Source: Candidatus Marinacidobacterales bacterium (GTDB lineage: Bacteria > Acidobacteriota > Vicinamibacteria > Marinacidobacterales > DATDRI01). From it: a stretch of 64,000 nt of DNA. Positions within the stretch are counted from its first letter, which is position 1; each line of letters begins with the position of its first letter. The stretch covers positions 4,128,001-4,192,000 of the forward strand of contig OZ245365.1 of NCBI GenBank assembly GCA_965226495.1, given 5' to 3'. The notes beneath the pieces were generated by a model. That model did not search any database and was not told where the DNA came from. It saw only the letters and a program-made list of their open reading frames with translations. This document shows positions 5,462 through 63,767 of the stretch, piece after piece. A program made the position numbers and the translations under genes.

Positions 5462-5500
5462 TTTCTAGTGCCTCAATGCGCGCTCAGTCATCGATGAATG

Positions 5501-5601
5501 GCGCGGGGCCCCACCCCCACGCCTCAGTGCTTCGTCGGCTGCGCGACTACGCATGGGCTCATGGCTGCGTTCGCGCGCTTGGCGCCTCGCTCGTCGCTCG
5601 G
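5501..5601. repeat. REP-like element, family A (GGGGCCCCACCCCC core), long form
   Basis: Core at 5505-5518; the first ~70 bp and the terminal CCTCGCTCxTCGCTCGG align with 41889-42038. Confidence 0.75.
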
Positions 5602-5685
5602 TTAACTGTTGTCGGGCCGCCGCCTGGCCACGTCGAGTTTTAGCAACCACATAGTTTGGCGGCCCTCACACGGGCTCGCGCCTTC

Positions 5686-5755
5686 ATCAGTGCGGCGGGG
5701 CCCCACCCCCACCGCCGTCCCTTCGCCGGCAAGCGGCTTCGGGACAAGCTGATGG
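5686..5755. repeat. REP-like element, family A, in a larger hairpin
   Basis: Core at 5697-5710, followed by a GTCCC...GGGAC stem and flanked by CATCAG/CTGATG. Confidence 0.6.
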
Positions 5756-5792
5756 CTCTTCGTGCAGGTGCCGTGCATTCTTGAGCACCCTG

Positions 5793-46824: not shown

Positions 46825-48051
46825 ATGTCTCCTGGGAACAGTCTCTTTTCGGCCCGGTTCTTCGTCATTTGCTCTTTCAATTTTACAGTTTTCCTGTCCG
46901 GTTTCATGCTGTTCCCTACCGGCCCATTTCATATTCTCGACTTAGGGGGCAATAAGTTCACGGCCGGGCTCTTCTTGGCCTTTCTGACCTACGCCTCCGC
47001 ATTTTCGGCTCCCTTCACGGGCGCATTGGCCGACCGAGTCGGCAAACGCCGCGTCCTGATCGTGGCCAGCCTGACTCTGGTGGTCATCTCCGGCTTATAC
47101 GCGGTGAGCCCGACCTATACCATCTTGTTGTCGTTGGTTCCCATTCACGGGTTTTTCTGGTCAGGCCTCCTCGCCGCCTCAGGCGCCTATCTCGTAGACC
47201 AAATCCCCGCCTCCCGTCGCGCCGAAGGACTGGCGTTTTGGGGGCTCGCGACGGTAGCCGCGATCGCCGTCGCACCGCCCCTCGCCTTTTGGCTCTACGA
47301 TTCCGGCGGCTGGCTGTGGGTTTGCATTGCGTCGGCGGTGTTCAACGTCGCCATGGCGGGGATTGCCCTCAACCTAAAGGACGGACCGCACCCAAGTGCG
47401 CCAGGTGAGCCAAGTGAGAAAGCCCGCTTGGAAACGACTTTCGTCGAATGGCGCATTGTCGGAGTTTCTCTAACTCTCTTCCTCTTCAGCTTCGGCTACG
47501 GCGGAATCACGAGCTTCGTGGCCCTTTACGCGCAGGAAAGCGGCACCGTTCCCAAGAGCCTTTACTTCACGGTGCTCGCTATCGTCATCTTGGTCACTCG
47601 CCCACTCCTCGGGCTCTTGGCCGACCGCATCGGACATAAGAGAGTCTTCATTCCCTGTCTTGTGTCCATGGCGGTGGGGCTAGCTCTCCTGGTACCGGGC
47701 GGAACACGTCCTTGGCTTGTGAGCTCTGCGATCTTCTTCGGCATCGGTTTGGGTTCGGCGCTTCCCGTCTACACCGCTTTCATCATGCAACGTGTATCCA
47801 CAGCTCGGCGGGGAGCGGCGTTCGGCGGCATGTTGGCAGCCTTCGACACCGGCATCGGTACCGGCTCAATGACGCTGGGGTATGTCATCGAGGCGACCAA
47901 CTATGGAGTCGCGTTCGGTATCGCGGCCATACTTGCGACGCTGTCGCTTCCCTACTTCATCGTGTCGGAGCGAAGGTTTCTAAGAGAACCAAGAAAGAAG
48001 AAAGAAGAGCCCGGTTATACTACGGTCGAGCCGAAAGGAGAGATCCCATGA
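46825..48051 (+). CDS. MFS transporter
   Basis: About 12 TMs; GALADRVGKRR and GLLADRIGHKR motif A. Confidence 0.92.
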   Translation: MSPGNSLFSARFFVICSFNFTVFLSGFMLFPTGPFHILDLGGNKFTAGLFLAFLTYASAFSAPFTGALADRVGKRRVLIVASLTLVVISGLYAVSPTYTILLSLVPIHGFFWSGLLAASGAYLVDQIPASRRAEGLAFWGLATVAAIAVAPPLAFWLYDSGGWLWVCIASAVFNVAMAGIALNLKDGPHPSAPGEPSEKARLETTFVEWRIVGVSLTLFLFSFGYGGITSFVALYAQESGTVPKSLYFTVLAIVILVTRPLLGLLADRIGHKRVFIPCLVSMAVGLALLVPGGTRPWLVSSAIFFGIGLGSALPVYTAFIMQRVSTARRGAAFGGMLAAFDTGIGTGSMTLGYVIEATNYGVAFGIAAILATLSLPYFIVSERRFLREPRKKKEEPGYTTVEPKGEIP

Positions 48052-49277
48052 CCTCCCTGGACCGCCGCAGTTTCCTCAAAACCACCACCGCCGGATTGGC
48101 CTCATTGGCAGCTGCCCGCGGCGAGGCGCGACCGGCCAACTCGGCCAACTCGTCCAATGATGACCCCCTCGGAGTACGCGCGGAGTTCCCGATCACCAAG
48201 GCCCAGGCCTATCTCAATACCGCTTCTTCGGGTCCCTTTCCCCGTGCGGTGAAAGAGGCAGCCTTGGCGTTCGTGGAGGAAAAAACCCTACGGCCGACCC
48301 CCGGTAGCCGCCATGAAACCCGAGCAAGAGCCCGAGCCAAGTTCGCCAAGCTCTTCGGCGCCAAAGAGGAAGAAGTGGCCTTCCTCTATTCCACAAGCGA
48401 CGGGGAAAATCTGGTAGCCCGCGGCCTCGACCTGCAGGCAGGCGATAACGTCGTGATCGACGAGCTTCATTTCATCACCAGCTTCGTACTCTTTCGCCAG
48501 CTCCAGAAGGAAAAAGGAATCGAGCTACGCGTGGTGCCACAAAGGAAAGGGCGTTCCGAGATCGAAGACTTCGAGGCGCGCATCGATCGACGCACGCGAC
48601 TCGTTTCCGTGGCGTGGGTCTCGAACCGCAACGGCTATCGACACAACATCCGCGCCCTCGCCGACCTCGCTCACGCCCACGACGCGTTGCTGTATGCCGA
48701 TGCTATCCAAGCGTTCGGCACTTTTCCGATGCGACTGCGCCAAGAAGGCGTGGATTTCGCGACCGGCAATTCGTACAAGTGGATCTACGCCGGCTATGGA
48801 GTCGCACCCTTTTTCATCCGCGAAGAGCATCTCGACCGCATCCGACCGGATCGCTACGGTCATGCCCAAGTGGCGGAGTCACTCCCCGACTATCAATACC
48901 GACTGCAGAAGACGGCTCAGAAGTTCGAGTACGCGAACCCGGCCTACGGTCCCCTGTATCAGCTCGATGCCGCCCTTTCTTTACTCGAGGAAGTTGGGCT
49001 CGACCGCATCGAAGCCCACGGCGTGGCGCTGGCCTCCGAGCTTCGCGCGGGAGTGAACAAGCTCGGATTCGAGGTATGGACCCCCCCGAACAACGCCTCG
49101 CCGATCGTAACGTTCCCACACGGACAAAAACCCGCGGCCTTGCGGCGTCTTCTGGAAAAGGAGGCGGTGGTCGTCACGCTTCCCGAGAAGGAAACACACA
49201 TACGAGCCGCGATGGGCATGTTCAACAACCAGAGCGACATCAATCGACTCTTGAAGGTTCTCGAGAGAATCGCTTAG
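48048..49277 (+). CDS. Tat-exported class V PLP-dependent enzyme
   Basis: DRRSFLK twin-arginine signal, YLNTAS, DAIQ, SYKW PLP lysine; AGGAG RBS. Confidence 0.88.
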   Translation: MTSLDRRSFLKTTTAGLASLAAARGEARPANSANSSNDDPLGVRAEFPITKAQAYLNTASSGPFPRAVKEAALAFVEEKTLRPTPGSRHETRARARAKFAKLFGAKEEEVAFLYSTSDGENLVARGLDLQAGDNVVIDELHFITSFVLFRQLQKEKGIELRVVPQRKGRSEIEDFEARIDRRTRLVSVAWVSNRNGYRHNIRALADLAHAHDALLYADAIQAFGTFPMRLRQEGVDFATGNSYKWIYAGYGVAPFFIREEHLDRIRPDRYGHAQVAESLPDYQYRLQKTAQKFEYANPAYGPLYQLDAALSLLEEVGLDRIEAHGVALASELRAGVNKLGFEVWTPPNNASPIVTFPHGQKPAALRRLLEKEAVVVTLPEKETHIRAAMGMFNNQSDINRLLKVLERIA

Positions 49278-53128: not shown

Positions 53129-53989
53129 CTAGGAACACTTGCCGCAAAAGTCGCCGTGGCCGTAATGCGCGGGCAACGCAGACTTGGATATCGAGAGCGT
53201 TTTCTTGTTCTTGTGACATACGAGGATCTTATTGGAGTTCTTCGGATCGGTTACGCTGCATTCCGGAACGTTCGTGTCGCCGACGTCCGTCCGGTCGTCG
53301 TCTTCTTCTTCCTGTAGCTTGATTTCCCGAGCGAAGACACCCTGGGTACCATCGACCATCCGCCACTAGCCTTTCACGTGTACGCGCTTCCCTTCCACGT
53401 CTTCCAAGTCGATTCTACGATTGCCTTTGCGTATGGCGGTCTCGCCCCCGCTCGAGACGACGAGCTCGTCGTTCACGCGAAGGGTTCCGTTGTTGGCGTG
53501 GCCGTCCTCTAACTGTACATCACTTGCCATTCCCTCGAGCTCCACGTCACCGTGGCCAATTCCGTTGCGCTTCTCCATGAGCAGGATTACCGTACCGTCG
53601 TCGTTCAAATCCACCAAGATGGAAAGCTGCTGGTTAGGCATGACTTCCTTGAACCGAATCCGGCCGATCCGAGTCCCATTCGCGTCTCGGAAGATGAGCG
53701 TGAAGACACCTTCTGGGAGTCCCCGGAGTGTGAAAGAACCGTTGGAGCCGACCGCAACTCGGATCCCTGTGTCGTTGCCGTCACTATCCAAGACTTCGAC
53801 GGTGACTCCAGCGAGATCCGTCGCGGACTGTGCCCGAAGCGCCAGCGGCGAGCGTCCGTCCGATGCGAACCGCCCAGTTAAGTTGACTCCATCTTGCGAG
53901 GGAGACGTCGGGCTAGAACCACCACAACTAACCACGAGAGAGCTCAACAGCGCGACAGCAAGTAACGTCCAGATTGTTCGATGGAGCAT
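53129..53989 (-). pseudogene. DUF5666-like lipoprotein interrupted by an in-frame TAG
   Basis: Lipobox VVSC; ...RVHVKG*WRMVDGTQGVFAREIKLQ continues in the same frame across TAG 53366-68 to a CH...AHYGHGDFCGKC tail. Confidence 0.7.
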
Positions 53990-54204
53990 GATCGTCTCCC
54001 TTGGACTCCGGCACACTTCCCGGGTTGTGGCTGGGGACCAATAGATCATGGTAGCAACGAGGGTCCGGAGACGACATGATCTGGGTCACTCAATGGACCC
54101 TCAAATTCTGTGTGGAAATTCCAACACTCGTTGGCACGAGCGCTACAACTCAGGAAAAACCGGAAGGATTCGGCGAAGTATTCGGCGTTGGTGTTGGCGC
54201 TCGC

Positions 54205-55344
54205 TTATCTCAAGCTCTGCGCCGCTTCCACCATGACTTGAAGCTTGCGAAACGCTATCTCGGAGCTAGCGATGGGACGGTTCGAGAAAGTACCGAAGCC
54301 GCAGTCCGGGTTGAGGAAGATGCTTTCCGCAGGATAATGCGCCAGCGCGCCCTCGACGCTGCGGCGGATGGTTTCAGGAGATTCCATTTCGTCCGTGCGC
54401 GGATTGACTACTCCGAGACCCAGCTCCTTGCCATCGAACGGGAGGACGTCGCCCGCTCGCTCGGTGGCGTATTCTAGGACGAGCTGTCGCGCGTCCATCC
54501 GACCCAGACTCGACCGCAATGGATGGTAGCTCCCGCGCAAAAGCGTCGACTCGTCCCGGCTCCAGTTCCCGCGGCAAACGTGAACACCGGTACGCACGTT
54601 GTCAAACCCTTCGAGCACTCGGTTGATCAGTGTGGTGGCGAACTCCAACTCTTCTTCTGGATCCTGGCGCGCGGCTAGCGCCGCGCACATGAACGTTCGC
54701 GTCTGACCTTGGGTAAATACGAGCTCCGTCAATACCGGCTCGTCGAGCTGAATGAAGCTGGCGCCGGCCGCAATCAGGTCCTCGATCTCCTCTCTTAGCA
54801 TCGCCACGACATCTTCCGCCAGCAACTCCTTTGTGGAATAAACGCCTCGGGTGATTTCCTTGACGAACATCGAGCGCGTGAGAAGGTACGGCCCGGGAAG
54901 CGGCACCTTGATGGGTTTGTTGGTATGTTTTTTCAAGAACGCGAGCTCGTTCAGAGCCAGTGACTCGCGGCGACGAATTTTCCCCACGCAGCTCGGATTG
55001 CTGAGCGAGTAAGCAGGCACGTCCAAAGTCTGCAAAATCTTCTCGAAACCGGCCCGGTCCTCGACGACTTCCGCCAACTCGGCAAGAGTCATGAGCCGAA
55101 CGCCCTCGAGCTTTTCGGCGACGAACGAATAGAAGTTATCCCGCCGTTGCTCGCCGTCGGTCACGATGTCCACGCCGGCTTCCTCTTGCTGGCGAAGAAC
55201 TTCCAAGACCGCCTTGTCGGCGGCGAGATCGAACTCCTCCAGAGGAAGTCGACCGAGGCGCTTCAGTTTCTGCGCCTTCAATAGCGCGGGCGAGCGCGGC
55301 CAGCTCCCCACGGTTGTGACGGGGAACAGCGGTAGCTCGGTCAT
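54205..55344 (-). CDS. Single-domain cobalamin-independent methionine synthase (MetE C-terminal-like) family protein
   Basis: TVGSWPR, TDGEQRR, IQLDEP; Zn ligands HVC, E (LEYA) and PDCG; 379 aa only. Confidence 0.88.
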   Translation of the reverse strand: MTELPLFPVTTVGSWPRSPALLKAQKLKRLGRLPLEEFDLAADKAVLEVLRQQEEAGVDIVTDGEQRRDNFYSFVAEKLEGVRLMTLAELAEVVEDRAGFEKILQTLDVPAYSLSNPSCVGKIRRRESLALNELAFLKKHTNKPIKVPLPGPYLLTRSMFVKEITRGVYSTKELLAEDVVAMLREEIEDLIAAGASFIQLDEPVLTELVFTQGQTRTFMCAALAARQDPEEELEFATTLINRVLEGFDNVRTGVHVCRGNWSRDESTLLRGSYHPLRSSLGRMDARQLVLEYATERAGDVLPFDGKELGLGVVNPRTDEMESPETIRRSVEGALAHYPAESIFLNPDCGFGTFSNRPIASSEIAFRKLQVMVEAAQSLR

Positions 55345-56165
55345 CCGCGAGTCTTCTCGAAGAAGGATTGCTTGTCGACCGCGTCAGATAAAGGTTCGAA
55401 CCCGCTCGTGCGCGCGGGCAGCCACTCTTTCAGGCCTTCGAGATCCATCATCTCGCGATGCTTTGGATTGTCGTAGCTCATGGAGAAGAGCACGTCCAGC
55501 CATTTCTTCTCTCGATCCGGAGGAAAGTCCTCACGTACTGTAAAGACACAATGGTCGAAGCGATCGGTCGAGGCTAGGATCTCGAACTCGCTAGCGTTGA
55601 CAGTGCCGTCCTTGGTCCACCCGTCCCAGTTCAGATCGATCATGGCCGAGCAGTGCGCCTCCCCTTTCTCGAGACACCTGAAGGCCTCGAGCTCACCACC
55701 CACGTGGTCGCCATGCTTTCCTACGAGAACGTCGAACCGCTTGACGTGAAAATCGTCTCCCGCCGTCAGGCCGTGGCGCTCTAGAAAACCCAGGGGGATC
55801 AATGTGGCCTGAGGCGAGTCTTTGGCTCCAACCGCCACTGTCTTGCCGCTCAAGTCCGCTACCTTGCCGACCCCGGAACCCTTGCGAACGACCAGATGCG
55901 TTACGCGGTCCCGGTCGGAATCCCGCATCGCGATGGCACGACAGGTACCACCGGAGGCCCGCTGAGAGTCGAGCCACGCGAGGGGCGAGTTCCAGGCCAT
56001 CTCGATGTGTCCTTTGACGAGCGCATCCACCTGCAGCTCGTAGTTCGTGTAGAACACGACATCCATGGGACAGCCGTGCTCCTCGAAGAACTCGCGGATG
56101 ATGTCCCAGATGACCGAGACTTTCGGATCGTACAAAACGGCGCCGACGATCACCGGCTTACTCAT
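55341..56165 (-). CDS. PhnD/SsuA-fold substrate-binding-like protein without signal peptide
   Basis: GAVLYDPKV start, AWNSPLAW, DLSGKTVAVG, DSPQAT, GKHGDHVGGE, FDHC. Confidence 0.8.
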   Translation of the reverse strand: MSKPVIVGAVLYDPKVSVIWDIIREFFEEHGCPMDVVFYTNYELQVDALVKGHIEMAWNSPLAWLDSQRASGGTCRAIAMRDSDRDRVTHLVVRKGSGVGKVADLSGKTVAVGAKDSPQATLIPLGFLERHGLTAGDDFHVKRFDVLVGKHGDHVGGELEAFRCLEKGEAHCSAMIDLNWDGWTKDGTVNASEFEILASTDRFDHCVFTVREDFPPDREKKWLDVLFSMSYDNPKHREMMDLEGLKEWLPARTSGFEPLSDAVDKQSFFEKTRG

Positions 56166-57316
56166 TAGAAGAGCTCCATGCCGCAAAGGGCGCGGCCGAT
56201 GAACTCGTGCGCCACATCGGTCGTCGGAGCCATGATGCCGGAGGCCCTAGCGTCTCGGAAATGCCGCTCGACGGCGACGCGGCGGCCGAACGCGGCTCCG
56301 CCACATGCCCGCATACCGATCTCAGTAACCGCCATCGCGGTTTCCGAAGCCGCCGCCTTCGCTTCAAGGACCAGAAGTTGAGTGACTTCGTTCGGCTGCT
56401 CGACCGAATCGATGACGCTGACGAGATGCGCGCGGCCCCGGTCGGTTTCGATACGCATCCGCGCGAGTCGGGCCCTCAGGTTGGGAAGCTCCGATAACGT
56501 CGACCCGAGGTGTTCGAATCGGCTGGACGTCAAGTGTTTCGTGGTGGCCTGGACGGCCGCCTCGGCGATTCCCACTGAGATGGCAGCATTCCCAATCTGA
56601 AACCACGGAAGCACGACCCCCAGCATGGTATCGAATCCCTTGCCCTCGTCGGAGAGCGCACGATCGGAAGGGATTGAGACGCGCTCGAGCTTCATGGGAG
56701 CGCTCGCGTTTCCTCTCATGCCGTGGGCGTCCCACGAGCCCGAGACATCTAAGCCCGCATCTTCAGCGAGCACGAGGTACAACATGCTCTCGGTAGGGGC
56801 GGTGCCGTCCGCCCAACCGGTGGAGACCACGTAGCCCGCGGCTATTCCTGCCGACGTAACGAATGACTTGTCCGCAGTGATATGAATTTGACCGTTCACT
56901 TTCTCCGCGCGGCTCACCGGGGCCCAGAAATGACTGCGGGAGCCTCGCTCGCTCCAGGCCAAGGTGGAGAGATGATCGCCTTTTGCCGCCGCTTCCAGAT
57001 ATTTAGCGGTGGTCTTCGATTTCGCGTTGTAGCAAGCGATGCCGCACAAATGCATCATGTAAATCATTCCGGTAGACGCGCAACGCTGCGAGAACTCATC
57101 GAGCACCGCACATCCGACACGGGGGCCTTGCCCCATGCCTCCATATTCCTCAGGTACATTCAGGCCAAGAAAACCGGCATCGCCGAGTGCACGGATCCCT
57201 TCGGTGGGAAAGGTGCTTTCCGAGTCTACGCGGGACGCATGGGGTGCAAGACTCTCGTCGGCCAGCTTTGATGCGCGGTCGATGATTTTCTTTTCTTCTG
57301 AATTCAAGCGGTACAT
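56165..57316 (-). CDS. Acyl-CoA dehydrogenase-fold flavoprotein
   Basis: VPEEYGGMG, LAWSE, KSFVTS, GMRGNAS, ERHFRDAR; start MYRLN after GGAG. Confidence 0.88.
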   Translation of the reverse strand: MYRLNSEEKKIIDRASKLADESLAPHASRVDSESTFPTEGIRALGDAGFLGLNVPEEYGGMGQGPRVGCAVLDEFSQRCASTGMIYMMHLCGIACYNAKSKTTAKYLEAAAKGDHLSTLAWSERGSRSHFWAPVSRAEKVNGQIHITADKSFVTSAGIAAGYVVSTGWADGTAPTESMLYLVLAEDAGLDVSGSWDAHGMRGNASAPMKLERVSIPSDRALSDEGKGFDTMLGVVLPWFQIGNAAISVGIAEAAVQATTKHLTSSRFEHLGSTLSELPNLRARLARMRIETDRGRAHLVSVIDSVEQPNEVTQLLVLEAKAAASETAMAVTEIGMRACGGAAFGRRVAVERHFRDARASGIMAPTTDVAHEFIGRALCGMELF

Positions 57317-57348
57317 GGGTTTAGACTCCTCCGGTAGGCGGCCAACTA

Positions 57349-57798
57349 TTAGAGCACAACTTTCAACGTGAGCTCCAAATCCACCACCGGCCGCAAGGTG
57401 CGCACCAGAGGCGATTTGGCCAACACTTCGTCCCAAACACGGCGTACCTTTTCTTCTCCGTCGACAGAGCTCGCATACACCTGGATGCGGATCCTTTCGA
57501 TTCCGGGATGGCCTTCTTCCCCGACGACGTCTAGGTACGTCAGCGGGTTGTTGACCGCACCGTGGACCACCGCCTCGACGTTATCCACTTCGACCCGGCG
57601 TTTTTTTGCGAGAGTGAAAAGACCGTTCGCAACATCCGACCCGAGGGCTCCAAGCACGTACTCGAGAGAGGTGATGTGCGGATATTCCTGATCGAACTGT
57701 AGTGGCGCGCCGACCGCGAATTGGTGTTTCCTAACGAAAACGGTCGCCAGGTTCTTGTCTCTGGCGCCGACTCTCAGGTTCCACTCGAAAGGTTCCAT
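57349..57798 (-). CDS. OsmC-fold protein lacking cysteines
   Basis: LEYVLGALGSD and KSPL at the usual OsmC/Ohr Cys positions. Confidence 0.7.
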   Translation of the reverse strand: MEPFEWNLRVGARDKNLATVFVRKHQFAVGAPLQFDQEYPHITSLEYVLGALGSDVANGLFTLAKKRRVEVDNVEAVVHGAVNNPLTYLDVVGEEGHPGIERIRIQVYASSVDGEEKVRRVWDEVLAKSPLVRTLRPVVDLELTLKVVL

Positions 57799-57883
57799 CG
57801 TCGCTGTGCTCGCGTCGAGCCTATCATAGCGTGGTCACAACGCTCGGTCTCACATCCAGGAGGAGGACGCCGCGGCGTCCAGC

Positions 57884-58729
57884 TTACGGCACGATCCCGA
57901 AGATGCGGCTAGCCGCTCCGGAGCCACCCTGAATCTTCATCGGCGCCACCACCAACCATGCGCCGGCGGCGGGCAGAGCGTCCACGTTGGCGATCAGCTC
58001 GATCTGGTACTTCCCGGCCCGGTGCATCTCGATATGCACTTGATTGAAGGGATCCGTCTTTAGAGAAATGGCTAGAGCGTCGGTGGACAGAGAGTCGGCT
58101 GCAACGGCGTTGATGTCGCGGTTCTCCAAGAGCCATCGAATGGCATCCGGGGAAAATCCGGGAAAGTGCAACTCTCCGGCCTCGTCCAAACCTAGAAACG
58201 CCATCGGATCGGAATACTTGGCACTCCAACCGCTGTTCATAATGATCACCGCGCCCGGGGGGATCTCTCCATTCGCCTGCTCCCACACCTCGAGGTCATC
58301 AACCGACACCATGTAGTCCGAATCAGCCGCGGCTTTCGCCTTCACATCCACGACCACCGCAGGCGCCACCAAGCGCTCGAGCGGTATCTCATCTATGGCT
58401 TCTTTGTCTTTGCCGGGAAACCAGTGGTTCGGAGCATCCACGTGCGTCCCCGAGTGCTCCGTCACCTGATACCAGTTCCAGTACCAGGTGTTCATTCCCG
58501 GTTCGTTCCATTTGGAGATCTCGTTGAGCTTGAACGGAACGCCCTGCCCCAAGTGGGGAGGCGCCTGAAACTCCGGCATCCCTTCATGGTACGGATGGGA
58601 TAGGTCGACCAGAGAGTAGTTCCCTGCCGCGAGCACGTCTGCGATCGTGGGCGCGGGTGTCTCAGGGGGCGCGCAAGAAGTGAGCCACGCGATTCCCCCG
58701 ATCCCAAAGACAAACGTCATGGGTCTCAT
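57884..58729 (-). CDS. Cyclase / kynurenine formamidase family lipoprotein
   Basis: EHSGTHVDAP metal motif, FPGFS, GGSGAASR; lipobox LTSC. Confidence 0.9.
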   Translation of the reverse strand: MRPMTFVFGIGGIAWLTSCAPPETPAPTIADVLAAGNYSLVDLSHPYHEGMPEFQAPPHLGQGVPFKLNEISKWNEPGMNTWYWNWYQVTEHSGTHVDAPNHWFPGKDKEAIDEIPLERLVAPAVVVDVKAKAAADSDYMVSVDDLEVWEQANGEIPPGAVIIMNSGWSAKYSDPMAFLGLDEAGELHFPGFSPDAIRWLLENRDINAVAADSLSTDALAISLKTDPFNQVHIEMHRAGKYQIELIANVDALPAAGAWLVVAPMKIQGGSGAASRIFGIVP

Positions 58730-58855: not shown

Positions 58856-60235
58856 ATGGTCACGGAAGTAAAGCCGTCGAGCTCCGAACGCCATTTCCTC
58901 AAGGCGCTCGGCCCCGGTTTGCTGCTCGCCGCAGTAGCCGTCGGCGTATCCCATCTCGTCCAGTCCACACGCGCCGGAGCGGTGTACGGTTTCGCGATGC
59001 TGATATTCATCGTGGGCGCCATCGTGACGAAGTACCCGACCTACCGATTTGCACCCCAATACACCCAGGCCACCGGCGTCTCGATGGTCGAGGGATTCCG
59101 GCGCCAAGGCCGGTGGGCGCTCGCCCTGTTTGCGCTAGTCTTCCCCATCCCGGCGCTCGTCGCGGTTGCCGCAGTGACGATTGTAACCGCCGGGGTCGCC
59201 AAGGCTACCTTCTTTCTTGGTGCGAGTCCGGGCAATATTGCCGTCGCGATACTGGCTATCACCGCCGTGTTGTTGATCACCGGGCGGTACCACTGGCTCG
59301 ATCTCCTAATGAAGCCGTTGATGCTGGTCCTCACCCTAACGACGGTGGCCGCGGCGTTGTTGGTACTGCCACATGTCGATTGGTCTCTTTCCGGAGACTT
59401 GTGGCCGGACACATTCGACATGAGGACGATACTATTCACCGCCGCTCTGATCGGATGGATGCCCGCGCCACTCGAGTCGGCCGTCATCCATACTTTGTGG
59501 TTGAGAGCCAAGGTTCAGGACACCGCCTACCGGCCGAGTGCAAGAGAATCGTCCCTCGATTTCCACATCGGTTATGTGGCTACTCTGCTACTGGCGGTTT
59601 GTTTTCTGGTGCTCGGGACCGGCGTTATGCATGGTAAGGGCATTGCATTCGAAGAGAGTGCCGGAGGCTTCGCCGCGCAGGTGATGGCCCTTTATACGGA
59701 GACCCTGGGCGACTGGAGCCGGCCGCTTATCGCTGCGGCAGCGCTGGCGGTGATGTACTCAACCGTGATCGCAGCGATCGATGGATTCTCGAGGATCACC
59801 GCCTCGACCATCTTGTGTTTTCGGGGACCAGAGGGGCCCTCACCCTACCCTCTCCCAGGGGGAGAGGGAATAGAGGAAGAACGGCACGATCAAATATCCT
59901 CACCCTACCCTCTCCCAAAGGGAGAGGGTACAAGGGCGCGCGGTGTGAATGCGTGGAACATTCTCTACGTCGTTTCGATCGTGGCGTTTTGTGCGGGGGC
60001 AGTTACGATCCTTATGTTCTTCCTGAGATCGTTCAAGACGCTGATCGATATCGCGACAACCCTCTCGTTTCTCACGACGCCGGTATTGGCCTTTCTGATC
60101 CACCGATCCATCATGAGCGCCGATGTCCCCGCGGAAGCGAGACCCGGGCGGGCTTTCTGGGGCTTTAGCGTGTTCTGTATCGGAGTGTTGACGACCTTTG
60201 CCGTCGGGTATTTGTTACTGCTGGTCGTGCGTTGA
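58856..60235 (+). CDS. Nramp-related (APC superfamily) membrane transporter
   Basis: LGPGLLLAAVAVGVSHLVQSTRAGA, GWMPAP, about 11 TMs; lacks canonical DPGN. Confidence 0.85.
   Translation: MVTEVKPSSSERHFLKALGPGLLLAAVAVGVSHLVQSTRAGAVYGFAMLIFIVGAIVTKYPTYRFAPQYTQATGVSMVEGFRRQGRWALALFALVFPIPALVAVAAVTIVTAGVAKATFFLGASPGNIAVAILAITAVLLITGRYHWLDLLMKPLMLVLTLTTVAAALLVLPHVDWSLSGDLWPDTFDMRTILFTAALIGWMPAPLESAVIHTLWLRAKVQDTAYRPSARESSLDFHIGYVATLLLAVCFLVLGTGVMHGKGIAFEESAGGFAAQVMALYTETLGDWSRPLIAAAALAVMYSTVIAAIDGFSRITASTILCFRGPEGPSPYPLPGGEGIEEERHDQISSPYPLPKGEGTRARGVNAWNILYVVSIVAFCAGAVTILMFFLRSFKTLIDIATTLSFLTTPVLAFLIHRSIMSADVPAEARPGRAFWGFSVFCIGVLTTFAVGYLLLLVVR
59837..59928 (+). repeat. Two family B palindromes inside the transporter CDS, 60-bp period
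   Basis: 59837-59868 and 59897-59928 nearly identical to 18851-18882; encode SPYPLPGGEG and SPYPLPKGEG. Confidence 0.92.
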
Positions 60236-60263
60236 GATGTTTTTCCTTGGAAAGGACGAGTCC

Positions 60264-61643
60264 ATGATCCCCGATCTTCGCGCTGTGCTGAAAGTCTTCG
60301 AATCCAACAACGAGTTGATTCGAATCAAGGAAGAGGTGGAGCTCAATTATCAGATTACCGCGTTCTGTCGCCTAGTATCCGACGCGGATGGTCCCGCCCT
60401 TTTGTTCGAACGGATCAAGGGACACACTGTACCGTTGGCGGTCAACCTTTTCGGCACACGACGACGCATCGCGCTGGCCTTAGAGACTACTGAACACGAG
60501 ATGACTGAGCGGAATCTGGAATGTCTCAAGAAACCCTTGCCACCTAAGATGGTGGAAGCCGATCTCTCTGACTGGGTGGTCATGAAAGGCGAGGACATCG
60601 ATCTGTATAGCCTTCCGCATTCGATCTGGAACGTGGGAGACGGGGGGCCCTTCGTGACGGCGGGTGTCGTCATGGCTCCGCAGGCCAGCGGCGAGTACAA
60701 CGCCGGAATTTATCGGATGCAGATACACAGTAAGAATACCTGCGGGGTTTATATGGCCCCCGATCACCACGTGCGGCGACTGCTCGAGGCGCCGGGTCGG
60801 ACGAAACCGGTTTCGATCTCGGTCGCCCTAGGACCTCCTCCGGCGCTCTTTCTGGCCGCCAGTTCCGATTTCGCGGTCAACGAGAGTGAAGTTTCGATAG
60901 CGGGTGCGCTCCAAGGAGAACCCTTGGAGTTCGCGGCCGGTCTGACGGTGAACGTACCGTGGCCGGTTCGGTCCGAGATCATCATCGAGGGCACACTGGA
61001 TGGAACTCTGGCCGAAGAGGGCCCTTTCGTCGAGTTCACGGGTTATACGACGGGGTCGGGACCTGCTCCGGTCATGAATATAACGGCCATCTATCACCGC
61101 CCACAACCGATCTACCATGCCGCCTACGTGGGTAAGCCGCCGAACGAGACGGCGACGGTCTGGCGGGAGATAGAAGAAGCGAAAGCACTCCGGGTACTCC
61201 AAGAACGTTTCCCCATCGTGAAGGGAATGCATCGACCGCCTCAGATCGGGCGTGACTTCTGGTGTGTCATCTCCGTGGACTCCGAACGCGCCAAACCCGG
61301 GATGATTGGAAACCTGCTACTCGGCGCCGCCTACTGCCTTCCGCGTCCGAAGTTCTTAATCGTCGTGGACGATGATGTCGACATTTACCGGATCGAGGAC
61401 GTGCTGTGGGCTTTGAGCATGCGCGTGAACCCCCAGCGCGACAGTTTTTTTGCACCCAATACAATGACATCCGGTCTGGATCCATGCGGACCCACGCCCC
61501 CTCTAACCTCGAAGCTTTTGATCGACGCTACCAAGAAAAAGGGGTTCCGCGGCAGGCTCGGGGTGCCGACCGAGGAAGCCTTCGACTTCGCACGCAAGAC
61601 GTTAGCCAAATACCTAAAGACGGAAGCTAAGGGGATCAGCTGA
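60264..61643 (+). CDS. UbiD-family prFMN-dependent (de)carboxylase
   Basis: YNAGIYRMQ, EEGPFVEFTGY, GKPPNE, VVDDDVD; ATG 60264 after AAAGGA. Confidence 0.9.
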   Translation: MIPDLRAVLKVFESNNELIRIKEEVELNYQITAFCRLVSDADGPALLFERIKGHTVPLAVNLFGTRRRIALALETTEHEMTERNLECLKKPLPPKMVEADLSDWVVMKGEDIDLYSLPHSIWNVGDGGPFVTAGVVMAPQASGEYNAGIYRMQIHSKNTCGVYMAPDHHVRRLLEAPGRTKPVSISVALGPPPALFLAASSDFAVNESEVSIAGALQGEPLEFAAGLTVNVPWPVRSEIIIEGTLDGTLAEEGPFVEFTGYTTGSGPAPVMNITAIYHRPQPIYHAAYVGKPPNETATVWREIEEAKALRVLQERFPIVKGMHRPPQIGRDFWCVISVDSERAKPGMIGNLLLGAAYCLPRPKFLIVVDDDVDIYRIEDVLWALSMRVNPQRDSFFAPNTMTSGLDPCGPTPPLTSKLLIDATKKKGFRGRLGVPTEEAFDFARKTLAKYLKTEAKGIS

Positions 61644-62608
61644 TGGAATTCGGCGTCTACTTACCCCACGCGGGACCCCTCTGTGACGCGGAAGCGGTCC
61701 GCGATGTCGCTCAAGCGGCGGAGGAGCTGGGCTTCGCGTCAGTTTGGGTCAACGACCACATTCCCCACACGCTCCAGTGGTCAGAGAAATTTCTATGTGT
61801 CGGCTCGCTCGATGCGCCCAACAAGCCCGATCACCTCGAAGCCGTTACCTCATTGAGTTATGTCGCCGCCTCGACGAAAAAAGTAAAACTCGGCTTTACT
61901 GTCCTCGTCTTGCCATTCCGCTCGCCGGCGCTCTTGGCGAAGCAGTGTGCCACACTCGATGTGTACTCGGGAGGGCGCCTGATCTTCGGCGTCGGCGCCG
62001 GAGGGGTCGAACCGGAGTTTCGAGCATTGGGCATCCCCTTCAAGGGCCGCGCCGGCGAAACGGTTCGCTCGATGCGCTCGATTCGCAAGTATTGGGAAAC
62101 GGGTTCCCTCGATGCGCAAGTGGAGGGTGACGATTTGACGTTCGAGCTACTTCCGCGTCCGGTGCAGCAACCGGCCCCGCCTATTTGGTTCGGTGGCCAC
62201 ACTCCCTGGGCTCTACGGACCACCGCGCGCCATTCGGACGGTTGGCTCCCTTTTGCGCTCACCTTGAAGGAGTTCCAGGCGAAGCTGCAAGAACTAGACA
62301 CATTGCTCTCTGAGCTCGAGCGTCCGCGCCCGACTCTCGCCACCCAACACTTGATAGTGATCGACGAGGACGCCACGCGAGCCGAAGAACGGGCCGCCAC
62401 AACTCTGACCGCAAGGTTTGGAGCGTTGGATAAAGGACTCGAAAAGTCTCTGGTGGGCAGCCCCAATCAAATACTCTTGAAGCTCCGAGCCTACAAAGGA
62501 CTTGGCGCGGAACACGTGGTGTTGGGCTTCATAGCCACCACGGTGCCCGAAATGCTGGATGACATGCGGCTCTTCTCCACAACGATCCTGCCAACCTTCC
62601 AAAGCTGA
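61643..62608 (+). CDS. Luciferase-like (LLM) flavin-dependent oxidoreductase
   Basis: AEELGFASVWVNDH, LAKQCATLDVYSGGRL, PRPVQQPAPPIWFGG. Confidence 0.9.
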   Translation: MEFGVYLPHAGPLCDAEAVRDVAQAAEELGFASVWVNDHIPHTLQWSEKFLCVGSLDAPNKPDHLEAVTSLSYVAASTKKVKLGFTVLVLPFRSPALLAKQCATLDVYSGGRLIFGVGAGGVEPEFRALGIPFKGRAGETVRSMRSIRKYWETGSLDAQVEGDDLTFELLPRPVQQPAPPIWFGGHTPWALRTTARHSDGWLPFALTLKEFQAKLQELDTLLSELERPRPTLATQHLIVIDEDATRAEERAATTLTARFGALDKGLEKSLVGSPNQILLKLRAYKGLGAEHVVLGFIATTVPEMLDDMRLFSTTILPTFQS

Positions 62609-62623
62609 AAAAGTGAGCCCCCA

Positions 62624-63085
62624 TTGAGTTCGTCCTCGCCGGTAGCGACCGAGCTAACCGAAGCCCAGTTCGAAACGTTGCAGCAGGGCTGCGCCGGTCT
62701 GCTAGTGACGGTCGAAGCGAATCGTTTTCCGACCACCGCCTTCGTATGGACGGTCGCTGCATCGCGCACGAAGGTGCGGTTCGGTGTCGAAGGAGGCACC
62801 ACCCAGGCCAACCTCGAACGGGAGGGAATGGCTTCTCTCCAGATCATCGGCGCCCGCAATCGCGTCTTTTTGATCAAGGGAAAGACGACCTTGGCGAAAC
62901 CGCGCCTCGAAGCCGTGCCGTTCGAGAGCGCAATGATGAGCTTGGAGGTGGCAGAGGTTAAGGATCAGACCTGGCCGGAGGTCTCCGTTCGTGAGCTCGC
63001 CTACGAATGGAACCCCGACCGTCGTGAAGAGTGGCTTGGCATCGAGCAAGCCGTCTACCGAGAGATGAGGGAGTGGAAGGACTGA
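62624..63085 (+). CDS. Pyridoxamine 5'-phosphate oxidase-like split-barrel protein
   Basis: LLVTV...PTT, TQANLERE...SLQIIG pattern; TTG start. Confidence 0.6.
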   Translation: MSSSSPVATELTEAQFETLQQGCAGLLVTVEANRFPTTAFVWTVAASRTKVRFGVEGGTTQANLEREGMASLQIIGARNRVFLIKGKTTLAKPRLEAVPFESAMMSLEVAEVKDQTWPEVSVRELAYEWNPDRREEWLGIEQAVYREMREWKD

Positions 63086-63101
63086 AGCGTCCGCGACCTG
63101 C

Positions 63102-63701
63102 TCAGTTTTTCGATGGTTCTCCGGCTGACATCACGCCGTCCCAGCGAGGCGCCTCGTCGAGACGAATCCCCAGCTGATCCAAAACTCGCATCACCGTCTG
63201 ATCGACGATCTCCGCGACGGTTTCTGGGCGATTGTAGAACGCTGGCACCGGCGGTGAGATGATGACTCCCATCCTCGCTAGCTTCAGCATGTTCTCGAGG
63301 TGCACCGCGTTGAGCGGTGCCTCGCGAACGACGAGCACGAGTTTCCGCTGTTCCTTCAAGGTCACATCCGCCGCCCGGTGAATGAGGTTGTCGCTCACGC
63401 CGTTAGCTATGGCGCCGAGCGTTCTAACGCTACACGGAACAACGACCATCCCCGACGTTTGAAACGAACCGCTCGAGATCCTGGCTCCCTGATCGTTCTG
63501 GGCGCAGGTGTAGCTGGCTATCTTCTGCACCTGCTCGACGCTGTACGACGTCTCGTGGATGAGGGTTCGCGCACCCCACTTGCTGATGATCAGGTGCGTC
63601 TCGACATCCGCTTGGCGGAGCATCTCGAGAGCCCGAACACCGTAGATCGTCCCGGTGGCGCCCGTGATGGCGACAACGATTCGCCGAGTCGACTCACTCA
63701 T
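63102..63701 (-). CDS. ubiX: Flavin prenyltransferase UbiX
   Basis: IVVAITGATG, ISSGS, PCS, RAADVTLKE, REAP, PAFY. Confidence 0.95.
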   Translation of the reverse strand: MSESTRRIVVAITGATGTIYGVRALEMLRQADVETHLIISKWGARTLIHETSYSVEQVQKIASYTCAQNDQGARISSGSFQTSGMVVVPCSVRTLGAIANGVSDNLIHRAADVTLKEQRKLVLVVREAPLNAVHLENMLKLARMGVIISPPVPAFYNRPETVAEIVDQTVMRVLDQLGIRLDEAPRWDGVMSAGEPSKN

Positions 63702-63767
63702 AGGACAACAAGTTACCTCAGGTCCATGAGAGAACGCGAACCCGGCGACATTCACCGCGGCGCGCGG

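What the first reader, a model, noticed from the sequence alone, without database searches (positions are those of the whole stretch)
54205..57798. Four-gene operon of non-canonical folds ending in a core MetE-like enzyme: candidate new sulfur/methyl-transfer pathway
Seen: co-oriented genes, the last three overlapping (TAATG, ATGA). (1) OsmC fold with no Cys, so not a thiol peroxidase. (2) Acyl-CoA dehydrogenase fold with GIMAPT where MCAD has the catalytic YEG, and no Glu in the alternative helix position (LPWFQ). (3) PhnD/SsuA fold with no signal peptide, no permease or ATPase nearby, and KHGDH and DHC motifs. (4) 379-aa MetE-like protein with intact His/Cys/Glu/Cys Zn site but no N-terminal half. 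Known: ACAD-fold proteins include organosulfur monooxygenases (DszC-like); binding-protein folds act as cytoplasmic enzymes (MqnA, MqnD, Thi5); core MetE-like proteins (MesA-D, epoxyalkane:CoM transferase) alkylate Zn-bound thiols using non-folate donors, some needing partners. Inference: an uncharacterised pathway that activates an organosulfur or methylated compound and transfers the alkyl group to a thiol, perhaps a folate-independent methionine synthesis route.
Basis: partly seen in the sequence, partly recalled or inferred. Interest (0 to 1): 0.8.

Follow-up and report, generated by a model that had tools for sequence, protein, structure and literature searches.

The report
Conserved MetE-like sulfur/methyl transfer operon
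Four neighbouring genes form a gene set conserved in many bacterial phyla and some archaea, built round an uncharacterised relative of methionine synthase whose helper proteins fit no described pathway, so it probably marks an unknown route for putting sulfur or a methyl group onto homocysteine.

Summary
On the minus strand lie an OsmC-like gene (57798..57349), an ACAD-like gene (57316..56165), an SBP-like gene (56165..55341) and a core MetE-like gene (55344..54205). The TAATG and ATGA overlaps and every cited motif are present.

The set is conserved. Among 53 loci with enough flank that encode a 57-72% identical MetE-like protein, the OsmC-like gene is adjacent in 52, the SBP-like in 41, and all three partners in 37. 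These loci span about ten bacterial phyla and Nitrososphaerota.

The MetE-like protein keeps the Zn ligands and the homocysteine-binding residues. It also has an extra invariant Cys220.

Sister loci lack the SBP-like and ACAD-like genes and carry TusA, DsrE or rhodanese instead; one such locus is a second copy in this genome. The scan had already noted that sister cassette on other DNA.

Cysteines covary with the variant. The OsmC-like Cys55 becomes Asp/Glu, and the MetE-like protein gains Cys119, exactly where SBP-like and ACAD-like genes are present.

Relatives of the SBP-like protein are fused to FMO-type flavin monooxygenases.

Best reading (0.4): a cysteine-relay system in which the flavoprotein/SBP-like pair replaces persulfide carriers.

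I found no publication on it. Interest is high.

The parts
57349..57798 (-). OsmC-like protein, 149 aa, no cysteine. The position of the OsmC peroxidatic-type Cys is Asp55 (codon 57636..57634).
   Evidence: Pfam OsmC E=1e-9. AF2 model pLDDT 95; Foldseek top hit 1lql, E=1e-10, TM 0.80. Adjacent to the MetE-like gene in 52 of 53 loci with enough flank. Position 55 is D/E in 49 of 49 loci with an SBP-like gene and Cys in 16 of 17 without.
56165..57316 (-). ACAD-fold flavoprotein, 383 aa, of the Rv1679/FadE16-like family. It has no catalytic base: Ala363 (codon 56230..56228) and Phe239.
   Evidence: Pfam ACAD N, M and C domains. NCBIfam NF049984 421.4 bits, below its cut-off of 600. Alignment to 8i4p puts Ala at the 'YEG' Glu. 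Column counts are A 40, G 4, E 3 of 47.
55341..56165 (-). Cytoplasmic SBP-fold protein, 274 aa, of the Rv1680-like family. Invariant His151, Asp153, His154, Asp204-His205-Cys206 (Cys codon 55550..55548).
   Evidence: Pfam Phosphonate-bd 108 bits. NF049985 247.5 bits, below its cut-off of 400. AF2 pLDDT 93.7; Foldseek hits PhnD, PtxB and HtxB at TM 0.7-0.8. 70 invariant columns in 25 orthologues. Motif kept across distant representatives, 7 of 20 long ones fused to FMO-like domains.
54205..55344 (-). Core MetE-like Zn enzyme, 379 aa. Zn ligands H255, C257, E291, C348. Homocysteine binders S14, E65, D201. Extra invariant Cys220 in an RTFMC insertion (codon 54687..54685). Variant-specific Cys119 (codon 54990..54988).
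   Evidence: Pfam Meth_synt_2 115.3 bits. Alignment to T. maritima MetE 1t7l. Invariance in 81 of 81 sequences. Cys119 in 56 of 58 loci with an SBP-like gene, against Ala/Val in 20 of 20 without. RTFMC is absent from 1ypx.
57799..57883 (-). Intergenic region upstream of the operon; presumed promoter region, not demonstrated.
   Evidence: Read: an 85-nt gap after the upstream cyclase-family gene. The consensus scan found no promoter on this strand. No Rfam family was found in the window.

Best explanation
The four genes encode one cytoplasmic system. Its catalytic centre is the MetE-like protein. This is a Zn enzyme that binds a homocysteine-type amino-acid thiol, as MetE does, but it also carries a reactive cysteine (Cys220) in a family-specific insertion.

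In sister loci this enzyme and its OsmC-like partner are fed by persulfide carriers (TusA, DsrE, rhodanese). There the OsmC-like protein supplies a second cysteine.

In the present variant those carriers are replaced by two proteins. One is an SBP-fold protein with an invariant His-Cys and a His/Asp cluster in what was the anion-binding cleft. The other is an ACAD-fold FAD protein that cannot act as a dehydrogenase, because it has no catalytic base. The second cysteine has moved onto the enzyme itself as Cys119.

Proposed mechanism, all steps inferred:
1. The flavoprotein oxidatively activates a small sulfur compound held by the SBP-like protein. This gives a persulfide, or a similar adduct, on Cys206. 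One possible route is a sulfenic acid on Cys206 that captures sulfide.
2. The adduct passes to Cys220.
3. At the Zn site it is joined to the amino-acid substrate, giving a homocysteine-type thiol.
4. Cys119 resolves the enzyme-product disulfide.

The net effect is an oxygen- and flavin-dependent way of feeding sulfur into homocysteine/methionine metabolism. It is held as an accessory, horizontally spread module.

What is shown: the conservation of the gene set, the residues, the folds, the alternative partner sets and the cysteine covariation.

What is inferred: the cargo (sulfur rather than methyl), the direction of the reaction and every chemical step.
For: Gene-set conservation:
- Among 53 loci with at least 3.5 kb upstream and 2.5 kb downstream flank, the OsmC-like gene is adjacent in 52, the SBP-like in 41, the ACAD-like in 37, and all three in 37.
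- The loci come from Chloroflexota, Acidobacteriota, Planctomycetota, Myxococcota, Gemmatimonadota, Armatimonadota, Nitrospinota, Latescibacterota and Nitrososphaerota.

Catalytic residues:
- The Zn ligands (H255, C257, E291, C348), two of the three homocysteine binders (E65, D201) and Cys220 are invariant in 81 of 81 sequences; the third binder, S14, is Ser in 79 of 81.

Sister loci with a 57-60% identical MetE-like protein:
- Bacillota carry TusA, DsrE and a TusA::OsmC fusion.
- A second copy in this genome, and L075, carry rhodanese upstream of the MetE-like gene and an OsmC-like gene downstream; this genome's copy also has an AhpD-like CMD gene further upstream.

Covariation of the catalytic/resolving kind:
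- OsmC-like position 55 is Cys in 16 of 17 loci without an SBP-like gene and Asp/Glu in 49 of 49 with one.
- MetE-like position 119 is Cys in 56 of 58 loci with an SBP-like gene and Ala/Val in 20 of 20 without.

Partner proteins:
- The ACAD-like protein lacks both known base positions.
- Among named NCBIfam models its hits include 3-sulfinopropanoyl-CoA desulfinase and SfnB.
- The His205-Cys206 pair and the acidic/His cluster of the SBP-like protein persist through a superfamily of 1052 representatives at E<=1e-10.
- 7 of 20 long members scanned are fused to FMO-like flavin monooxygenases. This ties the fold to a flavin oxygenase partner.

Regulation and distribution:
- A LysR regulator, and no S-box, lies at the Bacillota loci.
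- The module is patchy. In this genome's own phylum, 7 of 251 genomes have an SBP-like hit, this genome included, and only 2 of those are at 61% identity or more, again counting this genome.
- The tree disagrees with taxonomy.
Against: - No experiment and no solved structure exist for any of the four proteins.
- All characterised members of PF01717 are alkyl (methyl or epoxide) transferases, not sulfur transferases. This point is recalled, together with Price et al. PMC7857596, of which I read passages.
- The positions of Cys119 and Cys220 relative to the Zn site were not measured, because the tools give no coordinates.
- An ACAD-fold or FMO-type flavoprotein making a protein persulfide has no precedent that I know of.
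- The genome already has three full-length Cys/Met PLP enzymes, so a further homocysteine-forming route is not needed.
- The SBP-like/ACAD-like pair may not be functionally equivalent to TusA/DsrE/rhodanese. It also occurs without the MetE-like gene, next to diiron or radical SAM proteins.
- One distant SBP-like relative sits beside a PF02574 homocysteine S-methyltransferase. That points towards methyl chemistry.
Confidence: 0.4

Rival explanations
1. The system is a B12- and folate-independent methionine synthase. The MetE-like enzyme methylates Zn-bound homocysteine. The flavoprotein and the SBP-like protein generate or carry the methyl donor in an oxygen-dependent reaction, as proposed for MesX with MesD. 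In that case His205/Cys206 of the SBP-like protein, or Cys220, could carry the group.
For: - Family precedent: MetE and MesA-D are thiol methyltransferases. MesD needs a partner protein and O2, and is often next to a flavin reductase (PMC7857596, passages read).
- Of the homocysteine binders, E65 and D201 are invariant in 81 of 81 and S14 is Ser in 79 of 81.
- This genome has MetH and no MetE N-domain.
- Of 47 carrier genomes, only 2 have a full-length MetE frame, while 32 have the B12-dependent MetH domain. A B12-independent backup would therefore be useful.
- The flavoprotein lacks a dehydrogenase base.
- FMO fusions of the SBP-like fold exist.
- A distant SBP-like relative is coupled to a PF02574 homocysteine S-methyltransferase in one marine lineage.
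Against: - TusA, DsrE and rhodanese, the partners in sister loci, carry sulfur and not methyl groups.
- A plain methyl transfer needs neither an extra invariant Cys nor a resolving-type second Cys.
- There is no SAM riboswitch or T-box in 9 Bacillota loci or in the window.
- No MesX is present in this genome (the control genomes did not ring either).
- No methyl donor can be named.
Confidence: 0.3
2. The system is a thiol-redox or salvage system. The MetE-like enzyme binds homocysteine that is tied up as a mixed disulfide, persulfide or S-oxide. It releases free homocysteine with its Cys220/Cys119 pair. The OsmC-like, SBP-like and flavoprotein partners serve as redox partners, in protection against sulfane-sulfur or oxidative stress.
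For: - The catalytic/resolving cysteine covariation.
- The OsmC fold belongs to thiol peroxidases.
- An AhpD-like CMD protein lies at the second copy in this genome.
- Sulfur-stress type partners (TusA, DsrE, rhodanese) appear in sister loci.
Against: - The OsmC-like protein here has no Cys at all.
- ACAD-fold proteins are not known disulfide reductases (recalled).
- The very high conservation of the SBP-like protein, 70% mean column identity, suggests a specific ligand rather than a general redox role.
Confidence: 0.12
3. The SBP-like/ACAD-like pair is a general module that builds or modifies a small metabolite or cofactor held on the SBP-like protein. It is used by different downstream enzymes: the MetE-like enzyme here, and diiron or radical SAM proteins elsewhere. 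On this reading the operon makes a specialised thioether or natural-product-like compound rather than homocysteine or methionine.
For: - Five genomes of this genome's own phylum have ACAD-like plus SBP-like genes without MetE-like or OsmC-like genes.
- There the third gene is a TusA-like::AurF-like diiron protein (L171-L173), or a radical SAM protein lies convergently next to the pair (L175). An ATP-grasp ligase is nearby in L172.
- NCBIfam recognises the Rv1679/Rv1680 pair as families of their own.
Against: - The MetE-like protein keeps exactly the homocysteine-binding residues.
- No further biosynthetic genes are conserved around the operon.
- The MetE-like/OsmC-like pair also works with wholly different partners.
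Confidence: 0.13
4. The genes are unrelated neighbours: a stray fatty-acid ACAD, a decayed transporter binding protein, a stress protein and a spare MetE fragment.
For: Each protein on its own would receive such a routine annotation.
Against: - The same set in the same order, with overlapping stops and starts, recurs in about ten phyla.
- Identity is 60-74% for the SBP-like and MetE-like proteins.
- Partner-dependent residue covariation is present.
Confidence: 0.02

Closest known systems
MesD/MesX core methionine synthase (Price et al. 2021, PMC7857596; MesD structure 3rpd)
   Same: A core MetE-like enzyme without a folate-binding half. Zn and homocysteine residues are conserved. It depends on an adjacent, uncharacterised partner and on oxygen or flavin chemistry. 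It is found beside MetH in aerobes.
   Different: 3rpd matches at only 85.8 bits, over residues 5-206. No MesX (PF08908) was found in this genome. The partners here are OsmC-like, SBP-like and ACAD-like. The extra invariant Cys220 and the sulfur-relay sister loci have no counterpart in the passages of that paper that I read.
MetE C-terminal catalytic domain (T. maritima 1t7l, 1xdj)
   Same: The Zn ligands H/C/E/C, and the S, E and D that bind homocysteine, align.
   Different: There is no N-terminal barrel. There are two insertions, at about residues 84-106 and 209-220, the second holding RTFMC. HMC-Y-S-D is replaced by HVCRGNW. Several invariant Arg residues are new.
1ypx / YxjG-YxjH-like 'methionine synthase II' proteins (function untested, as far as my searches show)
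   Same: About 375 aa, aligning over the full length (7-376). Shares the HxCRGN and LEYxxER(S/A)GD motifs.
   Different: Only 71 bits. The RTFMC cysteine is not conserved in 1ypx. NCBIfam PRK06520 and PRK06233 score 116 and 93 bits against cut-offs of 313 and 576.
Rv1679 (FadE16) / Rv1680 gene pair of Mycobacterium tuberculosis (NCBIfam NF049984, NF049985)
   Same: The same pairing of a base-less ACAD-like protein with a signal-less SBP-like protein. These are the best NCBIfam hits of both proteins.
   Different: Both score below the family cut-offs (421 of 600; 247 of 400). No function is published: search returned 5 papers, of which I read passages of one, and that one calls Rv1680 a putative phosphonate transporter component from structural likeness alone.
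TusA-DsrE-TusA::OsmC-MetE-like cassette
   Same: An orthologous MetE-like protein (57-60% identity) with the same Cys220, and an OsmC-like partner.
   Different: That cassette uses cysteine-bearing sulfur carriers, and its OsmC-like domain keeps a Cys. This operon has SBP-like and ACAD-like partners instead, Asp55 in the OsmC-like protein, and Cys119 in the enzyme.
Periplasmic PhnD/PtxB/HtxB binding proteins, and binding-protein-fold enzymes such as Thi5 (the latter recalled; Thi5 also appears at rank 44-45)
   Same: The same two-lobe fold, TM 0.7-0.8.
   Different: No signal peptide and no transporter genes. The anion-binding S-T-S-S stretch of PtxB aligns to D-S-P-Q here. A His/Asp/Cys cluster is invariant.
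3-sulfinopropanoyl-CoA desulfinase (5af7) and other ACAD-fold enzymes without the dehydrogenase Glu
   Same: ACAD fold. That the desulfinase also lacks the usual catalytic Glu is recalled. It is a named NCBIfam hit (129.7 bits) and a PDB hit at 93.6 bits.
   Different: Far below the equivalog cut-off of 600. Ordinary short-chain ACADs score higher (125 bits). The substrate is unknown.

Membership tests
Cobalamin-independent methionine synthase MetE (full length) | Two (beta-alpha)8 barrels, with an N-terminal folate-binding domain (PF08267) | tested here: not met
   379 aa, with PF01717 only. No PF08267 match anywhere in this genome.
PF01717 catalytic-domain superfamily | Zn ligands His/Cys/Glu/Cys | tested here: met
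   H255, C257, E291 and C348 align to T. maritima MetE and are invariant in 81 of 81.
Core methionine synthases (MesA-D) as a functional class | Homocysteine-binding Ser/Glu/Asp (E. coli S433, E484, D599) | tested here: met
   S14 (79 of 81), E65 and D201 (81 of 81) align to these positions. The residue list comes from PMC7857596.
MesD | Close similarity to ACIAD3523/3rpd (the paper used BLASTp at 390 bits or more) and an adjacent MesX (DUF1852) | tested here: not met
   85.8 bits to 3rpd, over residues 5-206 only. PF08908 was not found in this genome. Note that no control genome rang in that search.
MesA/MesB/MesC | Association with corrinoid proteins in anaerobes; family-level similarity | tested here: inconclusive
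   The best NCBIfam 'methionine synthase' model scores 186 of 406 bits. No corrinoid protein gene was seen in the 16 ORFs scanned around the operon. Sequences of MesA-C were not available for direct comparison.
Methionine synthase activity | Methyl transfer to homocysteine | not testable with these tools
   Needs complementation or an enzyme assay.
Acyl-CoA dehydrogenase (true dehydrogenase) | Catalytic Glu at the MCAD-type or the IVD/LCAD-type position | tested here: not met
   Ala363 aligns to the Glu of 8i4p, and Phe239 sits at the alternative position. Across the 44 cluster-linked orthologues the counts are Ala 40 and Gly 4.
Rv1679 family ACAD (NF049984) | Score at or above the curated cut-off of 600 bits | tested here: not met
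   421.4 bits, E=3.4e-126. A relative, not a member.
Rv1680 family SBP-like protein (NF049985) | Score at or above the curated cut-off of 400 bits | tested here: not met
   247.5 bits and 246.9 bits. A relative, not a member.
ABC-transporter phosphonate/phosphite binding protein (PhnD/PtxB) | Export signal, neighbouring permease and ATPase, anion-binding Ser/Thr motif | tested here: not met
   No signal peptide. No transporter genes within about 8 kb. The PtxB S-T-S-S stretch aligns to D-S-P-Q. Only the fold is shared.
OsmC/Ohr thiol peroxidase | Two catalytic cysteines | tested here: not met
   The fold is met, but the protein has no Cys. Asp55 stands where sister loci have Cys. By my mapping of the OsmC motif, which is recalled, Ser129 stands at the second Cys position.

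The most novel reading that the evidence does not exclude
The MetE-like enzyme is a PLP-independent, persulfide-dependent homocysteine-forming (C-S bond-forming) enzyme. The SBP-fold/flavoprotein pair is a previously unknown oxygen-dependent machine that turns sulfide, or a small organosulfur compound, into a protein persulfide. It would be the functional equivalent of rhodanese/TusA/DsrE, and the founding example for a superfamily of more than a thousand cytoplasmic 'binding-protein' enzymes that work with flavin oxygenases.
Probability: 0.25. Interest if true: 0.9.

Novelty: new variant of a known kind. Interest (0 to 1): 0.75.

Why it matters
Core MetE-like enzymes with unknown donors are an open problem. 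Even for MesD/MesX the substrate is unknown.

This operon defines a second such system, and it is widespread: about ten bacterial phyla and soil ammonia-oxidising archaea. It has a wholly different partner set. It also has a natural 'experiment': two partner sets, sulfur carriers versus the SBP-like/flavoprotein pair, serve the same enzyme. That makes the cargo question directly testable.

The operon also gives a first functional handle on three things:
- the Rv1679/Rv1680-type gene pair;
- a large family of cytoplasmic binding-protein-fold proteins with an invariant His-Cys;
- their fusions to flavin monooxygenases.

Whichever cargo proves right, annotation pipelines now call these genes 'methionine synthase', 'acyl-CoA dehydrogenase' and 'phosphonate ABC transporter substrate-binding protein'. 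For at least the last two that is wrong.

Tried and rejected
- **Complex prediction.** MetE-like plus SBP-like, run with alignments A1 and A2, gave no verdict (ipSAE 0.00). It counts neither for nor against binding.
- **Rfam.** On the window and on 9 Bacillota loci I found no riboswitch, only rRNA and tRNA.
- **Promoter and terminator scan**: nothing above the shuffles.
- **Apparent SBP::MetE-like fusion in L046**. This was an artefact of my ORF extension; a stop separates the two genes.
- **P0180** (ACAD C-domain plus SBP-like in one 470-aa protein) may be a read-through or a fragment. I did not use it.
- **Metagenome scan with one SBP::FMO protein** found nothing. The repeat with alignment A4 gave 79 loci. 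None had MetE-like, OsmC-like or ACAD-like neighbours by tblastn.
- **MetE depletion test within this genome's own phylum.** I dropped it because only 2 of 251 genomes carry a close SBP-like gene.
- **Neighbourhood clustering**. No further gene family is conserved around the SBP-like/ACAD-like variant. My greedy ORF caller mis-called some high-GC loci, so all counts rest on tblastn.
Not seen in the 81 sequences here (all Cys) and not otherwise tested.
- **Literature.** Searches found no paper on this gene set. Supplementary files of PMC7857596 were closed and may list further MetE-like families.

Full report
**1.

Searches show four co-oriented genes on the minus strand.
- An OsmC-like gene, 57798..57349, 149 aa.
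- An ACAD-like gene. The mechanical ORF begins at 57436. The likely start is ATG 57316, just after GGAGG, giving 383 aa.
- An SBP-like gene, 56165..55341, 274 aa. Its ATG shares a base with the ACAD stop (TAATG).
- A MetE-like gene, 55344..54205, 379 aa. Its ATG overlaps the SBP stop (ATGA).

Pfam confirms the four folds. The predicted structures of the two small proteins are confident:
- The SBP-like model has pLDDT 93.7. Foldseek matches it to PhnD, PtxB and HtxB at TM 0.7-0.8.
- The OsmC-like model has pLDDT 95. Its best match is 1lql at TM 0.80.

- The OsmC-like protein has no cysteine.
- In the ACAD-like protein, Ala363 lies where solved ACADs have the catalytic Glu. Phe239 lies at the alternative position.
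- The SBP-like protein has KHGDH at 150-154 and DHC at 204-206. It has no signal peptide.
- The MetE-like protein has the Zn ligands H255, C257, E291 and C348, and no N-terminal half.

No ABC permease or ATPase lies within about 8 kb.

The flanking genes are on the same strand but are separated by gaps: 85 nt on the upstream side and more than 150 nt on the downstream side. They are not conserved with the set. They are a secreted cyclase-family protein at 58729..57884 and a lipoprotein-like ORF at 54049..53366.

**2. The gene set is conserved far beyond chance**

- The MetE-like protein belongs to a large, tightly conserved family. One search returned 7913 hits, and the best 120 are 68-97% identical.
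- A scan of one genome per species found 498 relatives, and 80 loci were fetched.
- By tblastn, 53 of these loci have at least 3.5 kb upstream and 2.5 kb downstream. In these the OsmC-like gene lies within 3.5 kb in 52, the SBP-like in 41, an ACAD-like in 37, and all three in 37.
- In the 37 loci whose MetE-like protein is at least 61% identical, the SBP-like gene is present in 37 and the full set in 33.
- The order OsmC-ACAD-SBP-MetE is the commonest. In Planctomycetota and some other lineages a more distant ACAD-like gene (40-46% identity) sits elsewhere in the locus.
- Carriers include Chloroflexota, Acidobacteriota, Planctomycetota, Myxococcota, Gemmatimonadota, Armatimonadota, Nitrospinota, Latescibacterota and two Nitrososphaerota archaea.
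- The protein tree scrambles taxonomy and nests the archaea among bacteria (quick tree, because the careful search did not finish).
- In this genome's own phylum, only 7 of 251 sampled genomes have an SBP-like match at E<=1e-30, counting this genome. Only one other genome reaches 61% identity.

Together these results indicate an accessory module spread by horizontal transfer.

**3. What the residues say**

I aligned orthologues taken from the loci.

MetE-like protein:
- The Zn ligands are invariant in 81 of 81.
- Of the three homocysteine-binding positions named by Price et al., E65 and D201 are invariant in 81 of 81, and S14 is Ser in 79 of 81.
- Cys220 is also invariant. It sits in an RTFMC insertion just after the DEP strand. 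MetE lacks this insertion, and the nearest solved core protein, 1ypx, lacks the cysteine.
- Several arginines that MetE does not have are invariant too: R17, R67, R216, R258, R296 and R316.

SBP-like protein:
- It is even more constrained, with 70% mean column identity and 70 invariant columns in 25 sequences.
- The invariant positions include H151, D153, H154, D204, H205 and C206.
- The PtxB anion-binding S-T-S-S stretch aligns to D-S-P-Q.

ACAD-like protein:
- It keeps the usual flavin-contact motifs. That identification is my reading of the alignment, and the motifs themselves are recalled.
- In all 44 cluster-linked orthologues it has Ala or Gly at the base position.

The OsmC-like protein is the least conserved of the four.

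**4. Sister loci change the picture**

Where the MetE-like protein is 57-60% identical, the SBP-like and ACAD-like genes are absent, but the OsmC-like gene stays.
- In Neobacillus, Schinkia and Alicyclobacillus the operon is TusA, DsrE, TusA::OsmC fusion, MetE-like. A divergent LysR regulator is seen in the Neobacillus loci.
- This genome carries a second copy (57% identity) outside the window. The gene order there is an AhpD-like CMD protein, a two-domain rhodanese, the MetE-like gene and an OsmC-like gene. L075 also has rhodanese upstream of the MetE-like gene and an OsmC-like gene downstream.
I reached both points independently. I did not test its claim that the cysteine is selenocysteine in some bacteria.

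The two variants differ in a telling way.
- OsmC-like position 55 is Cys in 16 of 17 loci without an SBP-like gene, and Asp or Glu in 49 of 49 loci with one.
- MetE-like position 119 is Ala or Val in 20 of 20 loci without an SBP-like gene, and Cys in 56 of 58 with one.
- Cys220 is constant in both.

This is the pattern of a catalytic cysteine with a second, resolving-type cysteine that is supplied either in trans or in cis.

**5. The SBP-like/flavoprotein pair is a module in its own right**

- NCBIfam's best hits are the Rv1679 (FadE16) and Rv1680 'SBP-like' families, but both score below their cut-offs.
- A profile of the SBP-like protein finds 1052 representatives at E<=1e-10. The R-D-x-D, D-S-P-Q, G-x-H-x-D and D-H-C positions persist through them.
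- I scanned 20 long representatives. 7 carry an FMO-like flavin monooxygenase domain fused to the SBP-like domain, 4 are tandem SBP domains and 1 has an ACAD C-domain. One fusion is confirmed on a contig (L098). Some fusion contigs look eukaryotic.
- Five genomes of this genome's own phylum have ACAD-like plus SBP-like genes without MetE-like or OsmC-like genes.
  - In three of them the next gene encodes a degenerate, Cys-less TusA-like domain fused to an AurF/ferritin-like diiron domain.
  - In one, a radical SAM protein lies convergently next to the pair.
- The same diiron protein lies near the OsmC-like and MetE-like genes in three Dehalococcoidia loci.
- One marine lineage couples a distant SBP-like protein to a PF02574 homocysteine S-methyltransferase.

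**6. Tests bearing on 'methionine synthase'**

- This genome has a full MetH (a 1231-aa frame) and no MetE N-domain.
- It also has three full-length Cys/Met PLP enzymes.
- Of 47 genomes with the SBP-like/ACAD-like variant, 32 have the MetH activation domain and 10 have PF08267 over its cut-off. Only 2 of those are full-length MetE frames.
- 6 genomes have neither. Their completeness is unknown.
- There is no SAM riboswitch or T-box in 9 Bacillota loci or in the window.
- The system is therefore not the sole methionine synthase of most carriers, but it could serve as a B12-independent backup.

**7. Interpretation**

| Claim | My estimate |
|---|---|
| One conserved functional system | about 0.95 |
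| A homocysteine-type amino-acid thiol binds at the Zn site | about 0.7 |
| Cysteine-relay chemistry through Cys220 | about 0.55 |

The identity of the cargo is open. I put sulfane sulfur first, at 0.4, for four reasons.
- The natural cargo of TusA, DsrE and rhodanese is sulfur.
- The catalytic residues of the enzyme are identical in both variants.
- A resolving cysteine fits a two-electron step such as persulfide sulfur becoming a thiol.
- Flavin oxygenases acting on soft sulfur nucleophiles could plausibly load Cys206.

The methyl-transfer reading is at 0.3. It keeps the family precedent, the MesD/MesX analogy and the MetH-only background. Two further rivals, thiol-redox salvage and a specialised metabolite, share most of the remaining probability. 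The reading that these genes are chance neighbours is excluded.

**8. Novelty**

My searches found no paper that describes this gene set, the Rv1679/Rv1680 function or the SBP::FMO fusions. The only related text is Price et al. 2021, of which I read passages. I file the system as a new variant of the 'core MetE-like enzyme with partner proteins' kind. If the sulfur reading is right, it would be categorically new chemistry for this fold.

Noticed in passing
Own genome outside the window: G000:C1:3257328-3260489 (= L087:5329-8489): A second copy of the MetE-like gene (57% identity, with RTFMC). It is flanked by an AhpD-like CMD protein and a two-domain rhodanese upstream, and by an OsmC-like protein downstream. 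A COX1+FixO haem-copper oxidase-like gene pair lies just upstream, and the same pair lies next to the MetE-like locus in L066 and L075, which belong to other phyla or lineages.
   Followed up: partly
Own genome outside the window: G000:C1:1239850-1240920 (-) (L003): A third MetE-like paralogue of the 1ypx/YxjG type. It has an in-frame TGA exactly at the Zn-ligand Cys of the HxC motif (reads HL*RGN). It is either a selenoprotein candidate or a pseudogene. SECIS elements and the Sec machinery were not checked.
   Followed up: no
window 60198-63755: A UbiD-family decarboxylase (60198-61643), a TIGR03619-type F420-dependent LLM oxidoreductase (61643-62608, start overlapping the UbiD stop) and a UbiX-like flavoprotein on the other strand (63755..63102). 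Together they form a prenyl-FMN decarboxylase set next to an F420 enzyme.
   Followed up: no
window 58856-60235: An Nramp-like membrane protein that only just passes the family scores. It has an inserted, internally repeated Pro-rich stretch (SPYPLPxGEG twice) in a loop. It is divergently oriented to the cyclase-family gene.
   Followed up: no
L171:7899-9095, L172:5728-7011 (-), L173:7750-8994; also L065, L068 and L082 at about 5085-5990: A family of about 400-aa proteins with a Cys-less TusA-like N-domain and an AurF/ferritin-like diiron domain (two ExxH motifs). It follows ACAD-like plus SBP-like pairs, and elsewhere it lies beside OsmC-like and MetE-like genes.
   Followed up: partly
P0157, P0161, P0210, P0233, P0245, P0256, P0270; contigs L092-L100, L107, L110: SBP-like domains with the D-H-C motif fused to FMO-like flavin monooxygenases. 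Several contigs have matches spread over more DNA than the protein needs, which suggests introns and a eukaryotic (algal?) origin.
   Followed up: partly
L168:6025-8934 (and the near-identical L169): In a marine contig, a PF02574 homocysteine S-methyltransferase, a distant signal-less SBP-like protein (S-H-C-C motif, start overlapping the upstream gene) and a creatinase/prolidase-like M24 protein lie in a row.
   Followed up: partly
window 47712-49277: A class-V aminotransferase / cysteine desulfurase-like ORF (Aminotran_5, 147 bits) about 5 kb from the operon on the opposite strand, next to an MFS transporter (46825-48051). It is not conserved with the operon in other loci.
   Followed up: no
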